Below, piece after piece: positions 1 to 6,000 of a stretch of 24,775 nucleotides of DNA. The position numbers are program-made. The number at the start of each line of letters is the position of its first letter. Positions within the stretch are counted from its first letter, which is position 1. Origin of the DNA: a virus. Its lineage: Duplodnaviria > Heunggongvirae > Uroviricota > Caudoviricetes. The DNA is taken from positions 1 through 24,775 of the IMG/VR virus record IMGVR_UViG_2541047936_000008; one strand, 5' to 3'.

Positions 1-3000
1 ATGTGGGTCAATAAGTATATTGACGATTGCACTGATGAGGATTTAAACGATCGTGACTTTATTGCATCAGTTGTTGACCGGGCTATTTTTCATTTCGCGA
101 TTAATAGTATATGTAATCCTGGGGATAATAAAGATGCAATGCCCATTGAACAATGTACTTTTGATGTAGAAACTAAGAATGACCTTCCCTCCACGGTTCA
201 GCTATTTTATGAGGAATCTAAGGATAATGAACCTTTAGCGAATATACATTTTCAAGCAATAGGTTCTGGTTTTTTAACGTTTGTTAATGCCTGCCAGGAA
301 CATGATGACAACAGCTTAAAATTATTTGCTTCGCTGTTAATTTCACTTTCATATTCTAGTGCCTACGCAGATTTATCAGAAACAGTGTATATTAATGAAA
401 ATAATGAGAGCTACCTGAAAGCTCAGTTTGAAAAATTATCTCAACGTGATATGAAGAAGTACCTGGGAGAGATGAAGCGTCTGGCTGATGGGGGAGAAAT
501 GAATTTTGATGGCTATCTGGATAAGATGTCACATCTGGTGAATGAAGGAACGCTCGATCCTGATATTTTAAGCAAAATGCGAGATGCTGCACCACAATTA
601 ATTAGCTTCGCGAAGTCGTTTGACCCAACCTCAAAGGAAGAGATTAAAATACTTACAGACACTTCTAAATTAATTTATGATTTGTTCGGGGTTAAATCGG
701 AGAAATAATATGTGAAGTTCTTCGATAGTATGGAAGGCATTATATAAAAGGACCCAATATTTATTGGGTTCTTTTTTCTCTATCAATGCTATTAGCAGGG
801 AGATATATCACCAGAGTTTAATGTGTGATTTTTTATTTATCGTCGAACCTGGATTGTTTATCATTGGCCTTAACAAAGTTAACGGCTAATAAGATTATTT
901 CCATCACTTCGTGAGAGCTTCATGCCTTGAGAGGATCTCAATTTTCTTTTGCAATGAGACAGGCGCTTCCTGTTGTTATGGTATAGTACCCCGCTATTGA
1001 GCCTCCTGAATAGTGATGCTGAATAACATAACCCCATGATATATCGATAAAATAATCTCTACATTTGAAAATGCACGGTAATTCTGAAATGCAAAAAATC
1101 AACCAAACCAGCGCAATGCCTGAAAAAACTGACGTTCACTGGAGTGGTCGGTTTAGCGTTGCACCAATGCTCGATAGGATGTACCGTTTTTGAAAAACAA
1201 GTAGTTATACACTTTGTGGGAGCCTATTGGGAACCCGGTGTTTTCATTTCAAGGTGTAATCCATGCGGGGCATCAGAATGAGATATAATGAGATTTTTAG
1301 TGTTCCGCTTGAGAGTCTATGATGCTTACCCTAGACGAGATAGGTCAATCTGTACGTAACAATATCCAGTTGATTATTGATCATGTCGGCTTACCTCTTG
1401 CTGTTGGTCCGCTCAGTGATGATGATTACAAGATTCTGTGTGGTGGCTATGGTGAGCTTGAATGGGACTATGCGTTAAGCACCTATGGCAACTCCAGAGA
1501 AAAGTATGAGTTCTGCATAAAACTTGTTCAGCAAGGTCGGGTTCAGGGAATACCATCAGGAGCAGCAATTTGTGTTTATGGGGTTGAAGAAAACATCTTT
1601 CGTATCCATATGATCGAAAGGTTTTCTAGAGAAGATGAATCTCACCCATTGAAAGGGCGCATGGTTTTACTCACTCTTATGAGTGCTTTTATATTTTGTA
1701 AAGCTGTTGAATGTAAAGTTGTCCACATTGTAGAGCCAGTACCAGAACTGGTGCAGTATTACGAGTCTTTTGGTTTCCGCATGGAACAGTGCGGTTATGT
1801 GATGTCTGCAGTCATTGATGAGCTGCAGGATATCTTTCTTAAATTTGCTCAGTAGGTATAGACGAGAAGGGTCTACAAATTGTAGGATACCCGTCCAGAT
1901 TACCTTAAAGGTACATCTATGGCAGTCGTTTTGTGCTTAAACTACTAAGAAACGATGTCACCAATCGACATGATCGATTGGCATAAGTTAGCTAAACAAG
2001 CTAGCTTTAAAGAGAGGGTTAGAGACGCCTTTACTGTCTCGGGAGTTTTCTATGAAAGATCAAAAAGCAACCAAGCCACAGGTTAAGTTCGACACAATGA
2101 AAGCATTCGCAGGTATGGGTGCTGCTGTTGAAGTTCTGATGAAGGCTGCTCCTAATGCGTTCACTCACGCTACTGTCTCTGGTAAAGAGCAGCAGGGTAA
2201 GCTTCGTCGTCGCAAAGCAGCATGATCATAGCTGGTGCTTTTTGAAAACCCGCCTTTAGGCGGGTTTTTTCTTTAGTGATGTTCTTTGCCCTTCTGTTTG
2301 CCTGTTCTGACCTGTTCCCACTCGATACGTCCTTCTTCTCGTCTTTTGTCTATGTATTCCGCAAGATCTTGAATATTGATGCAACGTTTTGCTTTTTGTG
2401 ATGTGCCGATGCGATATGTTGGAACGGGCAACTTACAAGCGTTTGCTTTTGCTTCTGCCGTGGCTGGACTCATACCAAAGTATTTTTGACTAACTGCTGA
2501 GAGTTCAATGTTTAGGGTATTGAATTCAGCCATCAGTAAAAACAAGGTATTCATATCATTTCTCCATCATAACCGGCTGCACCCGGTGAGTTACTTATTC
2601 ATTTCAATAATATTATTTTCTATCATTGATTTATTTAAAACCAAAGAAGGAGCAAGATGGTTGTCTATTTTAAATAATGCATAACTTTTAAACCGTTGGT
2701 GATATCCGTAACCAATAAGGATGCTAGAAAAATCTCTTAATTTATCTTCTTTAAGAACATGAAAATGAAATGGGTTGTCGCCATTTATGGACAATGAAGC
2801 ATCTATTATGCAGTATTTCTCTCCGTTGTCATTTGCATAGAAAAAAATATAAGACATTCTGTTTGTTAAGACAATGCCATTAAATTTTATTATGTCTGGA
2901 ATTATTTTGTTTTTCATATTTGGTGCCACATGTTTATTTTCAGAAATACATTTGATTTCATCTCCAGATGTCGTGATTATATAAAAATGAAACTTATCAG

Positions 3001-6000
3001 AAATATCTAACTTAACTACGCCATCATTATTATAAAGGCTGCTAAATTTTGGTAGTTCAACTTTTAAAGAATCATAGTTCTTTAGAAGAAGAGGGGAGTC
3101 AAATTTAATAACTTGTAGTATCCCTTTCCCTTCAACCTCCATATTGATTGAAGATATAGCAATTGCATTATCTCTTTTATTAGTCAGGATTATGGTTGAT
3201 ATATGCATGTCATATATTTTACTTACATTTGCTGAATACGATACTGTCACCTTTTTTGATATTTTTTGTACGCCAAAATATATAGTGAAGCCTGCGGCAA
3301 AAATAGATAAGAATTTAATGTCAAATAAGGACCATAACCACATTAGTTGCTCAATTGCTTCAGAGTTAATCATTTGCTTTACCATTATCGCTGTAATACA
3401 ACACATGTGCGTATATATACGCAATGCAATTATTTTGCAAGTGCTTCATTTACTATCTATAGCTACGTCACGTTATCGTTTAATGGTTCTTTATAGGGGC
3501 GGCAATAGTTAAAATTATCGCTTCCGTAAACGCCCCCGCAGGGGCATTTGCAGTAATGAAATCAGGCGGTGAAAGTACCAATAAAGGTTTCTACTTTGCT
3601 GTCTTTGAATTTTTCAACAAGCAGATCACGAAATTCGTTAGCCATTTCTTCCTGCACTGCTTCCAGCTGAATAATGCGCAGAACCAGTACAGGGCGATCA
3701 CCAGTGATAATGCTGAGTCGTAATTTAAATGGACGTTCTTTCAGGCCTTCAAACGGAACGCATTTAAATTCAAATGCCACTGGCATAATGTCTTTGGTCT
3801 TCGCTTCGACAGACTCCATCAGGGAGCGTTTGCCGCTGAAGTCATTGTCTTCAAAATCAGCAGTCTGGTTCGCTTCAATTGTGATTTTACGGACCGCCGC
3901 AGCCGCTTTTGTTGCCTGAATAGCGTCACCATTAGCATCAAAGCCCACAAGGTAGTCGGCCCAGTCTTCAATCCATTCTGCCAGTGACTTCTGGGAGTTA
4001 CGCTCGCCGTTAACAGACAACAGGGCAGAGAACGGTGCTGTCTTTTTCAGTTTGAGAGTGGCGGTGTTATCTGCGTGACCTGGTTCATCAATAGTACCCA
4101 GGTTAAGCACACTGACTGCTCGCATATTATCGGCATCGATAAAGCAGCGGGTGCCTTCATCTGCAAGATCTTTAGAATAACGGGTAAAGTCATCGATGCT
4201 GGCAGTGGAAAGCGCACCACGGAAACGGAAGCGATTTAAATTAAATTTTTCCAGATCATGAATGCGGAAATTCTCAGGCAATGCCACAGCATCGGCACCA
4301 ATCTTACTGATAATTTCATTAACACCCTGAGCAGAAATAAGGGCATGGATTTGATTAATTGCGGTTGCGTCTAAGTTCTGAGACATAATAAGTCCTCACT
4401 ATATAAAGATATTCATTGATGAGATAAATAATCGGTTAATTAAGAACGATATTAATGACCTGCTGCGCGGAGTTTTCCGTCAGGTTCACCGGCAAGAGTC
4501 AGTAATTGTCCCTGGTCTTCCTGCAGAATAGTCAGGCGACCACCGCGATTGACATACATCGGCGTTTCGGTGGTGTCTTCTTCGGAAATTTTCCCGCGGT
4601 TAGTCGGGCGAACATATGAGAGTTTGTGTTTGATTTTCACACGGTTCTCATCAAATGGTTCGATTTCCAGGTTGAGTGAGACCTTACCTTTGGTTTTCGT
4701 GTTCATCACACCTGAAGCGACTTCACTGAGAACTGCGCCGATTTTGGTTTCAAATACGCCGCCGTCCAACTCCCCGATAAATGCCTGCACATCAGTACTG
4801 CGTTCGCTAGCCATTTTGCTGCTCCTCATCATATCGACCCTGCAAGGTCGGTTGGTTTCTCCACAAAACAGAGAAGAACACCTGCGGTGGCAGCCGCCCG
4901 GATGGATTGGGTTATGAGCCCGTCGTCCGGTGATGCTCTTCTCTGTTTTGTAAAAAGAGCGGTACCAGCCGGAAGCAAGTGCACAAACTGGTACCGCCAA
5001 AGCAGTGGCTGTTGTGGTGGGGTTGTCACTCAGGCGTATGGTCAACCTGACAATCCGGTGTCCTCAACGGGGAAAGAGTAACCCCGCCATACTTACCGCC
5101 GCGCCATTTCGCGGATTACCACAACGCTGAGAGCACTTAGCCAGTTACGGCACCACACTTTGTCGCGGTTCCATAAATGCCCTCATCGTTGCACCCTGGT
5201 CTCTTCCCAGGCGTCAAACCGAATCGCCACGCTGGTTAGGCGTCTTATCAGCATCCTCATTGACTTGCACATTCCGGCTACCTGGTTTGTTTGCCCGAGC
5301 AAGGAGTGGATTGTCCCCTTTAACGTCCCCAGACCGCTAACGACGCATGTGCCATACGCCGTGTTACAACCAAATTTTGTTTAATCTTGCCTGTGGCATG
5401 TTTCTTTTAGATACATTATGTATCTCGTAGGTACATTGTCAAGTATAAAAAAACCTGCCGAAGCAGGTTATAAATATTGATTAGGCCTTTATTTGGTATC
5501 TTCTTGGTTTTCCTGAGAAAATTACTGTACCAATTATAGAGCAATTACCGTTAATCTTAATGTAAGGCTCAGGCCAGTTTGGGTTTAATGCTTTGAGATA
5601 ACGCTGTGTTCCATCTTCTATCAATCGCTTGAAGGTGGTTTCGCCTGTATCGTGCATCAATGCAATAACGTCGTCACCGTGGCAGGCAGGGACTTCGGGA
5701 TCAACAAAAATCATGTCTCCCGGGCGGTACTCATCAATCATTGAATCACCAATCACCCGCAAGATATAAGTCATTTCGCCACAGGGTACAGGGCAGGGAT
5801 AAGTTTCTGCTGTGCTCAAATCAACCTCAGAATAGCCAACTTCTTTCCATGCTCCGGCCTGTACCCATGATATGACAGGGACTAACGTTATTTGTTTGTT
5901 AGTAATTGAAACATCAGGTTTTTTTGTGATGTTTGTTGTCTGGTGTTCTTGATCAAGCCATCCGACAGGCAGGTCGAAACATTTTTCGATGTGCCGTGCC

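What the first reader, a model, noticed from the sequence alone, without database searches (positions are those of the whole stretch)
2591..3424. AT-rich membrane-anchored protein of unknown function in the early-left operon
The 277 aa protein has a single N-terminal hydrophobic helix and a large C-terminal domain with no motif I can recognise. Its base composition is sharply AT-rich relative to the neighbouring DUF2303 gene, suggesting separate acquisition. It is co-oriented with the PL-like early-left transcript and directly upstream of a PrtN-like regulator. Membrane proteins in this position of lambdoid prophages are frequently superinfection-exclusion or abortive-infection factors.
Basis: inference. 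Interest (0 to 1): 0.6.

Follow-up and report, generated by a model that had tools for sequence, protein, structure and literature searches.

The report
Uncharacterised membrane-anchored prophage cargo gene
A real, AT-rich gene in a decayed E. coli prophage encodes a membrane-tethered protein of a widespread but unstudied family that travels as a lone cargo gene in prophages, phage satellites, plasmids and defence islands, so it is a reasonable but untested candidate for an anti-phage or exclusion function.

Summary
The ORF is real, but the protein is probably 260 aa, starting at the ATG at 3373 rather than the TTG at 3424. It has one N-terminal hydrophobic helix. Its GC content is 0.29, against 0.46 for the neighbouring yfdQ (DUF2303) gene. 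It lies in the leftward early operon directly upstream of a PrtN-family gene that PHROGs classes as an excisionase.

It matches no Pfam, NCBIfam, PADLOC or PDB family, only phrog_14996, whose function is unknown. A profile search finds about 226 sequence clusters with the same architecture.

Homologues are lone, AT-rich genes in variable slots of mobile elements:
- before xis, in the nin region, and between Q and the holin in prophages;
- in P4-like satellite cargo next to a type II-A retron;
- beside a type I restriction-modification system and an OLD-like ATPase;
- on small plasmids next to toxin-antitoxin genes.

Its dN/dS is 0.35, against 0.02 for yfdQ. No promoter of its own is detectable.

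My best reading, at confidence 0.45, is a new single-gene defence or exclusion protein that acts from the inner face of the membrane. This is inferred, not shown.

The parts
2591..3373 (-). Coding sequence of the 260-aa protein (stop codon 2591-2593); member of phrog_14996; identical to RefSeq WP_032144914.1
3374..3424 (-). 5' extension of the open frame back to a TTG (17 codons); probably not translated
   Evidence: The PHROG profile and all homologues start at the ATG at 3373; RefSeq annotation
3269..3346 (-). Residues ~10-35: the single hydrophobic helix (membrane anchor). It is followed by QKISKK; the N-terminal flank carries no K/R and three D/E
2951..3250 (-). Residues ~42-141: Ig-like beta-sandwich, the most conserved part of the family (N65, K/R67, D68, P94, K98, E/D101, S111). 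C142, also conserved, is the next residue after this part
2915..2941 (-). Residues 145-153: low-confidence, hypervariable linker loop
   Evidence: pLDDT below 50; mean column identity 0.185 for residues 145-156; amino-acid differences between E. coli alleles cluster at 148-162
2594..2905 (-). Residues ~157-260: compact alpha/beta domain, confidently predicted, with no structural match in the PDB
3374..3561 (-). 188-nt spacer between yfdQ and the gene. It holds a GC hairpin (3545-3532) with a poor T-tract. Similarity to other yfdQ prophages ends at ~3513. No promoter-like site above chance; TTGCAA-17-TATATA at 3440-3412 matches only 8 of 12
2273..2554 (-). Downstream gene (93 aa): Pfam PyocinActivator/PrtN and phrog_1300 excisionase. 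It starts 36 bases after the target's stop with no terminator between them, so it is probably co-transcribed
2244..2269 (.). Strong bidirectional terminator-like hairpin (11 pairs) closing the leftward operon
3562..4386 (-). Upstream gene yfdQ (DUF2303), GC 0.457, conserved in 2763 E. coli genomes
5415..5442 (-). PL-like promoter (TTGACA-16-CATAAT) just downstream of the cI-like repressor gene and its terminator; probable source of the transcript that reaches the gene
   Evidence: repressor identified

Best explanation
The gene is a horizontally mobile, single-gene cargo module of prophages, satellites and plasmids. It encodes a protein anchored in the inner membrane by one N-terminal helix, with the N-terminus outside. 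Its Ig-like domain and its C-terminal alpha/beta domain sit on the cytoplasmic face.

The most likely role is inter-phage conflict. The protein would protect the carrier cell or element against other phages, acting as a non-enzymatic, membrane-tethered binding protein. The variable loop and C-terminal domain would recognise an incoming phage component. The outcome would be either a block of DNA entry or an early step at the membrane (exclusion), or membrane damage through helix oligomerisation (abortive infection).

In this window it is most likely transcribed with the early-left operon and xis rather than from a promoter of its own.

Shown here: the gene is real; its architecture; the family and its distribution; the cargo behaviour; the fast evolution. 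Predicted: the topology and the fold. Inferred: the defence role and the mechanism.
For: - Presence/absence polymorphism in a variable slot of otherwise homologous prophages.
- GC content stays at 0.29-0.39 in twelve contexts where the flanks are mostly 0.40-0.53.
- The same family sits in unrelated accessory positions: directly upstream of non-homologous excisionases in E. coli and Citrobacter; the nin region in Klebsiella and L010; between Q/methylase and the holin; P4-like satellite cargo next to a type II-A retron; next to hsdMSR; near an OLD/AriA/GajA-like ATPase and a BrnA antitoxin; on plasmids with MazEF or ParA.
- No gene partner is shared across all the contexts examined.
- dN/dS is 0.35, against 0.085 for xis and 0.018 for yfdQ at similar dS.
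- In 126 of 146 relatives the C-terminal flank of the helix carries more K/R than the N-terminal flank. One relative (P0035) has a signal-peptide-like N-terminus and a ~90-aa segment ahead of the same helix, which fits an outside-to-inside helix.
- The family-wide conserved residues include no recognisable catalytic set, and there are no enzyme-like structural matches.
Against: - There is no phenotype. There is no homology to any PADLOC model or to any PHROG annotated as exclusion.
- No isolated phage genome carries it.
- The window copy has no promoter above chance and no terminator before xis. Expression in the repressed prophage is doubtful, and an early-lytic role would fit equally well.
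- Neighbourhood evidence comes from about a dozen hand-inspected loci, not a statistical enrichment test. Two remote loci were uninformative.
- Topology rests on the positive-inside rule only.
Confidence: 0.45

Rival explanations
1. An early-lytic accessory function that serves the phage itself. This could be host takeover or counter-defence, for example tethering or sequestering a host protein at the membrane. It would be made only when the early-left operon is derepressed, like the kil, cIII, gam, ral and ea genes of lambda (comparison from general knowledge).
For: - Position in the PL-like operon between yfdQ and xis.
- No promoter of its own above chance and no terminator before xis.
- The Citrobacter copies also lie directly upstream of xis-int.
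- Fast evolution also fits counter-defence.
Against: Relatives lie in settings with no phage lytic programme: a chromosomal island next to hsdMSR in a Syntrophobacteraceae genome and small non-mobilisable Acinetobacter plasmids. In other prophages the gene sits in the early-right or late regions, and two of those copies have promoter-like sites that few shuffles match (fractions 0.03 and 0.05).
Confidence: 0.25
2. An envelope-facing lysogenic-conversion or receptor-masking protein. The helix would act as an uncleaved signal anchor (N-terminus inside) and the Ig-like domain would sit in the periplasm. This would resemble periplasm-facing injection blockers such as T4 Sp or HK97 gp15 (recalled from general knowledge, not tested here).
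Against: - Charge bias: K/R averages 0.7 on the N-terminal flank and 2.55 on the C-terminal flank, and 126 of 146 relatives point the other way.
- The window protein has no K/R before the helix.
- Only one cysteine is conserved, so there is no conserved disulphide pair.
- P0035 places an exported segment ahead of the helix.
Confidence: 0.1
3. A functionless hitch-hiker or decaying gene in a degenerate prophage.
For: The element in the window is a ~22-kb deletion remnant lacking head, terminase and lysis genes. dN/dS is higher than in the neighbouring genes.
Against: The gene is intact in all 99 E. coli genomes that carry it, and the 25 listed copies are annotated as coding. Length and architecture are conserved across ~226 clusters in several bacterial orders. 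dN/dS is 0.35, below 1. The fold is predicted with confidence.
Confidence: 0.05

Closest known systems
phrog_14996 (PHROGs v4, function unknown)
   Same: Full-length profile match, E 6.3e-176, covering residues 18-277 of the 277-codon frame, which is the whole 260-aa protein.
   Different: The family has no annotation, so membership says nothing about function.
P22 SieA superinfection-exclusion protein
   Same: A prophage-encoded inner-membrane protein made from a single gene that is sufficient for exclusion, with part of the protein on the cytoplasmic side (PMC10883804). This is the kind of role proposed here.
   Different: SieA is 162-164 aa with three predicted transmembrane helices and no large soluble domain. 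No sequence similarity was found: tblastn of phage genomes gave nothing, and the PHROG scan hit only phrog_14996. SieA is expressed from the prophage, which is not established for this gene.
Lambdoid 'morons' and variable early-left accessory genes (general knowledge; e.g. lambda sieB, bor, lom, ea genes)
   Same: Presence/absence polymorphism between related prophages, deviant base composition, and location in accessory slots.
   Different: The classic moron definition includes its own promoter and terminator. Neither is detectable for the window copy.
Single-gene defence proteins of mobile-element hotspots, such as P2/P4 satellite hotspots and PADLOC candidate systems
   Same: Lies in P4-like satellite cargo next to a type II-A retron, and beside type I restriction-modification and an OLD-like ATPase. 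It is a lone gene and evolves fast.
   Different: No PADLOC v2.0.0 model matches the protein. Among 43 relatives there were only two single-member hits just under the 0.01 cut-off (BrxA 0.0016, REase_II 0.0099). No activity has been demonstrated.
Archaeal type IV pilins / generic Ig-like beta-sandwiches
   Different: The scores are in the generic Ig-fold range. The extra C-terminal domain is absent from pilins, and the predicted topology is the opposite. I saw no prepilin-type processing motif on reading the N-terminus; this was by eye, not a formal test.

Membership tests
phrog_14996 | Significant full-length match to the family profile | tested here: met
   E 6.3e-176, profile positions 1-260 of 260
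Known anti-phage defence systems (PADLOC-DB v2.0.0) | Match to a model of a known or candidate defence protein | tested here: not met
   No hit for the protein at E<=1. Among 43 relatives, only two single-member hits just under the 0.01 cut-off
Known superinfection-exclusion proteins (SieA, SieB, Imm, Sp, gp15, Sim, Cor, Llp) | Sequence homology to a characterised exclusion family | tested here: not met
   The PHROG scan at E<=0.1 returned only phrog_14996. tblastn against 50,697 phage records found nothing with the window protein or the Klebsiella homologue
Known superinfection-exclusion proteins | Location in the cell envelope | tested here: inconclusive
   A single hydrophobic helix is predicted; membrane insertion has not been shown experimentally
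Known superinfection-exclusion proteins | Expressed in the lysogen and blocks superinfecting phage | not testable with these tools
   Needs transcript mapping and plaque or DNA-entry assays. The promoter scan of the upstream 188 nt is at chance level
Moron (autonomous prophage cargo unit) | Present or absent between otherwise homologous prophages | tested here: met
   yfdQ in 2763 genomes, target in 99, similarity breakpoint at ~3513; alternative slot content
Moron (autonomous prophage cargo unit) | Base composition distinct from the surrounding genome | tested here: met
   GC 0.29 against 0.457, 0.415 and 0.484; the same holds in the other contexts
Moron (autonomous prophage cargo unit) | Own promoter and terminator | tested here: not met
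   No promoter-like site in 3374-3561 by the scan. Best score 8, reached by 80% of shuffles. No terminator between the gene and xis
Ig-like beta-sandwich fold (residues ~42-141) | Significant structural superposition on Ig-like domains | tested here: inconclusive
Rz-type i-spanin | N-in/C-out anchor, periplasmic coiled coil, and a fixed place in the lysis cassette | tested here: not met
   Predicted C-in topology and a beta-rich fold. Only the Hafnia-type copy is near a holin; the others are elsewhere

The most novel reading that the evidence does not exclude
This is the founding member of a new, widespread single-gene anti-phage immunity family (about 226 clusters at 50% identity in the profile search; named members come from Enterobacterales, Aeromonas, Vibrio, Acinetobacter and a Syntrophobacteraceae genome). 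It would work from the cytoplasmic face of the inner membrane. A conserved membrane-proximal Ig-like domain would be coupled to a rapidly evolving sensor domain whose fold is not represented in the PDB.
Probability: 0.35. Interest if true: 0.6.

Novelty: new variant of a known kind. Interest (0 to 1): 0.4.

Why it matters
If the protein does block phages, it would add a compact (783-base), single-gene, non-enzymatic, membrane-tethered mechanism to the known defence repertoire. Its sensor domain has no structural precedent. It would also explain a recurrent cargo gene in E. coli, Klebsiella and Citrobacter prophages and satellites, which matters for predicting phage host range in phage therapy. 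If it is instead an early-lytic or counter-defence factor, it would mark the yfdQ-xis slot as a variable accessory region, like the b2/ea region of lambda. Either way the test is cheap: one gene, one plasmid, one phage panel.

Tried and rejected
Searches that returned nothing informative:
- Pfam, NCBIfam and PADLOC scans of the protein and of 43 relatives. Results were only sub-threshold noise: Ig_TMEM131L_3, DUF5007, DUF2393, BrxA and REase_II, one member each.
- PDB sequence-profile searches with A1 and A2. The only hits were polyubiquitin (E 0.061) and poliovirus receptor (E 2.9), both chance.
- tblastn against isolated phage genomes found no match.
- Literature searches for the accessions and for the PHROG id found no papers.
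- Genome-collection scan: the broad alignment was too diverse to search with, and the narrow one gave only 3 loci.

Ideas considered and dropped:
- A promoter of its own: TTGCAA-17-TATATA matches only 8 of 12, the scan found none, and the shuffles do not support one.
- The hairpin after yfdQ as a terminator: the scan did not flag it and the T-tract is poor.
- A conserved partner gene: a MTase is adjacent in two contexts but from different families (MT-A70 and N6_N4_Mtase). The Citrobacter 477-aa neighbour is absent elsewhere.
- N65-K-R-D read as a GTPase NKxD motif: rejected as coincidence, because it lies in a beta-sandwich and I see no P-loop on reading the sequence.
- Pilin and spanin readings were rejected (see the membership rows).
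Full report
**1. The observation**

The open frame at 2591..3424 on the minus strand exists. It cannot be chance. With the region's base composition the probability of 260 stop-free codons is about 1e-10, and 2000 shuffles never gave more than 141 open codons.

The annotated start should move to the ATG at 3373, which gives 260 aa:
- phrog_14996 aligns end to end with residues 18-277 of the long frame.
- RefSeq calls a 260-aa protein, WP_032144914.1, in a genome where the gene is 100% identical.
- M1 and N3 of the short form are invariant in 15 homologues.

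GC content is 0.29 for the gene, 0.457 for yfdQ/DUF2303, 0.415 for the downstream gene and 0.484 for the window.

There is one hydrophobic stretch, at about residues 10-35, and AlphaFold2 predicts a helix at 4-38.

A near-consensus promoter at 5442-5415 on the minus strand (TTGACA-16-CATAAT) sits just after the cI-like repressor gene and its terminator. It points through yfdP, yfdQ, the target and the downstream gene to a strong hairpin terminator at 2244-2269.

The downstream 93-aa protein matches Pfam PyocinActivator/PrtN (E 1.7e-22) and phrog_1300 'excisionase' (E 7.9e-39).

**2. The setting**

The window contains a whole element of about 22.3 kb inserted in dusA. Its landmarks are:
- a displaced dusA 5' fragment at 1065-1193;
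- a 16-nt core repeated at 1116 and 23407;
- an integrase at 22176-23273 on the minus strand;
- an intact dusA at 23362-24399.

The element is a deletion remnant. A replication gene at 8100-8918 is followed directly by a truncated tail sheath and by tail and baseplate genes, with no head, terminase or lysis genes among those scanned. A sister prophage in strain LWY6 keeps the full early-right region.

yfdQ is found in 2763 of 5426 complete E. coli genomes, but similarity to the window stops at about position 3513. Only 99 genomes (1.8%, single copy, chromosomal) carry the target. Other yfdQ prophages hold yfdR plus various other genes in the slot between yfdQ and xis/int. The gene is therefore one alternative cargo of a variable slot.

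**3. The protein**

Sequence searches gave no functional assignment:
- No Pfam hit above threshold, and no NCBIfam or PADLOC hit.
- PDB sequence profiles gave nothing credible.

The word-indexed search found only 15 close clusters, in E. coli, Citrobacter, Klebsiella and metagenomes. A full HMMER profile search found 226 clusters at E<=1e-3 and 145 at E<=1e-10. Nearly all are 235-275 aa and match over most of their length. Where a source names them, they are 'hypothetical protein' from Hafnia, Aeromonas, Vibrio and a Syntrophobacteraceae genome. tblastn also found two on Acinetobacter plasmids.

AlphaFold2 on the 15-sequence alignment gave pLDDT 82 and pTM 0.67. The model has four parts:
- a helix at residues 4-38;
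- a beta-sandwich at about 42-141;
- a disordered loop at 145-153;
- an alpha/beta domain at about 157-260.

Across 134 full-length relatives the best-conserved positions are K37, N65, K/R67, D68, P94, K98, E/D101, S111, C142, Y179, G194 and N205. The Ig-like domain is the most conserved region and the 145-156 loop the least. I recognise no catalytic constellation in this set, which is an inference from reading the list.

**4. Topology**

In the window protein the N-terminal flank of the helix has no K/R and three D/E, while the C-terminal flank has four K/R. Across 146 relatives the flanks average 0.7 and 2.55 K/R, and 126 have more on the C-terminal side. By the positive-inside rule (established knowledge) the globular part is cytoplasmic.

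One distant relative, P0035, has a signal-peptide-like N-terminus and a ~90-residue segment ahead of the same helix. That is what an outside-to-inside helix would need (inference). Only one cysteine is conserved. The topology is predicted, not shown.

**5. Where relatives live**

All inspected copies are lone genes with low GC (0.29-0.39), in flanks that are mostly 0.40-0.53.

| Host or source | Position of the homologue |
|---|---|
| Klebsiella prophages | nin-like region, after an MT-A70 methylase |
| Citrobacter islands, including a P4-like satellite | directly upstream of xis-int; this xis is phrog_2917, unrelated to the E. coli phrog_1300 xis |
| Another enterobacterial prophage (L010) | between a P63C gene and dinI |
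| Hafnia-type prophage | between Q/N6_N4 methylase and the holin |
| Pantoea P4-like satellite | next to a type II-A retron (RT_II-A E 5.6e-107, NDT_II-A E 2.1e-59) |
| Syntrophobacteraceae genome | next to hsdM-hsdS-hsdR |
| Metagenomic contig | about 1.6 kb from an OLD/AriA/GajA-like ATPase and near a BrnA antitoxin |
| Plasmid-like contigs and two small Acinetobacter plasmids | with ParA, MazEF or BrnA |

Two remote loci were uninformative. No isolated phage genome in INPHARED carries the gene.

This is the distribution expected of defence or conflict cargo. It is a hand-picked sample, though, not an enrichment statistic.

**6. Evolution and expression**

I compared the two E. coli alleles (96% nucleotide identity).

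| Gene | dS | dN/dS |
|---|---|---|
| target | 0.089 | 0.35 |
| xis | 0.053 | 0.085 |
| yfdQ | 0.085 | 0.018 |

The amino-acid changes cluster at residues 148-162 and 192-211. This indicates purifying selection that is much weaker than in the neighbours, or partly diversifying selection. It rests on one pair of sequences and 32 substitutions.

For the window copy, no sigma-70-like site in the 188-nt upstream spacer beats chance: the best score was 8, reached by 80% of shuffles. No terminator separates the gene from xis. Only the Hafnia-type and L010 copies have promoter-like sites that few shuffles match (fractions 0.03 and 0.05). In this element the gene is therefore most simply read as part of the early-left transcript. 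That weakens the idea that it acts from a repressed prophage.

**7. Interpretation**

Best explanation (confidence 0.45): a mobile single-gene conflict module. It would be a membrane-tethered, non-enzymatic binding protein facing the cytoplasm, giving exclusion or abortive infection against other phages. The conserved Ig-like domain would sit next to the membrane, and the variable loop and C-terminal domain would provide specificity.

Rivals:
- An early-lytic host-takeover or counter-defence factor (0.25). The operon position and the lack of a promoter favour it; the plasmid and chromosomal-island relatives count against it.
- A periplasm-facing conversion or masking protein (0.10). The charge bias contradicts it.
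- A functionless passenger (0.05). Conservation contradicts it.

The remaining probability is for roles I have not thought of.

**8. Comparison with known systems and novelty**

The protein belongs to phrog_14996, which has no known function. It is not a member of any characterised exclusion or defence family tested here.

In proposed role it resembles P22 SieA, a single prophage gene for an inner-membrane protein. SieA, however, is 162-164 aa with three transmembrane helices and no soluble domain (PMC10883804).

It behaves like a moron in its presence/absence pattern and composition, but it lacks a moron's own promoter and terminator.

I rate it a new variant of a known kind: mobile-element cargo of the exclusion/defence type, but a new family with an unmatched C-terminal fold and a cytoplasm-facing layout.

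Interest is moderate (0.4). Unannotated prophage cargo genes are common, and nothing here would surprise a specialist. The family is broad, compact and easy to test.

Noticed in passing
window 1065-24399: The whole window is one ~22.3-kb element integrated in dusA: displaced dusA 5' fragment at 1065-1193, a 16-nt core repeated at 1116 and 23407, integrase at 22176-23273 (minus strand), and intact dusA at 23362-24399. It looks like a deletion remnant. A replication gene (8100-8918) abuts a truncated tail sheath (9178-9774), followed by tape-measure and Mu-like baseplate genes, with no head, terminase or lysis genes among those scanned.
   Followed up: partly
window 1319-1855 (+) and 2052-2225 (+): Two plus-strand genes of unknown function (phrog_4350, 178 aa; phrog_2741, 57 aa) lie between the attachment site and xis, convergent with the early-left operon. 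In strain FDAARGOS_497 (L027 4434-5422) the same slot holds a Panacea-domain protein plus a hypothetical protein, followed by a 57-aa gene in the same position as orf57. This looks like a second variable cargo slot.
   Followed up: partly
window 20822-21517 (-): A 231-aa DUF4145 protein (phrog_1305, 'DNA binding protein') lies on the opposite strand to the tail genes and ~660 bases from the integrase gene. It may be another cargo gene.
   Followed up: no
window 4827-5414: A GC-rich stretch (~0.55) of about 590 bases between the PL-like promoter and yfdP has no convincing gene. In strain LWY6 the region between yfdP and the repressor is longer and includes a ParA-family gene (L001 15136-16221).
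   Followed up: no
L011 8968-11026 (-): In Candidatus Pantoea rara a type II-A retron (RT_II-A plus NDT_II-A effector) sits between a P4-like primase and the homologue of the target. This looks like a satellite cargo hotspot.
   Followed up: partly
L006-L009 6015-7448 (+): A 477-aa protein with no Pfam, PADLOC or PHROG hit lies ~550 bases upstream of the Citrobacter homologue in four different island backbones (an 80-aa gene intervenes in two). It may be a partner or independent cargo.
   Followed up: partly
L020 5520-10266 (-) and L032 6959-11678 (-): A pair of large unannotated proteins (~885 and ~690 aa) lies convergent with the remote homologue, both on a metagenomic plasmid-like contig and on an Acinetobacter towneri plasmid. 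The 885-aa protein has only a weak DRT-like PADLOC hit (E 3.6e-6).
   Followed up: no
L002-L005 8776-9117 (+): In Klebsiella prophages a 113-aa gene (phrog_536, 'transcriptional regulator') starts 2 bases after the homologue's stop codon, which suggests translational coupling there. The equivalent position in E. coli and Citrobacter is taken by excisionases of two unrelated families.
   Followed up: partly
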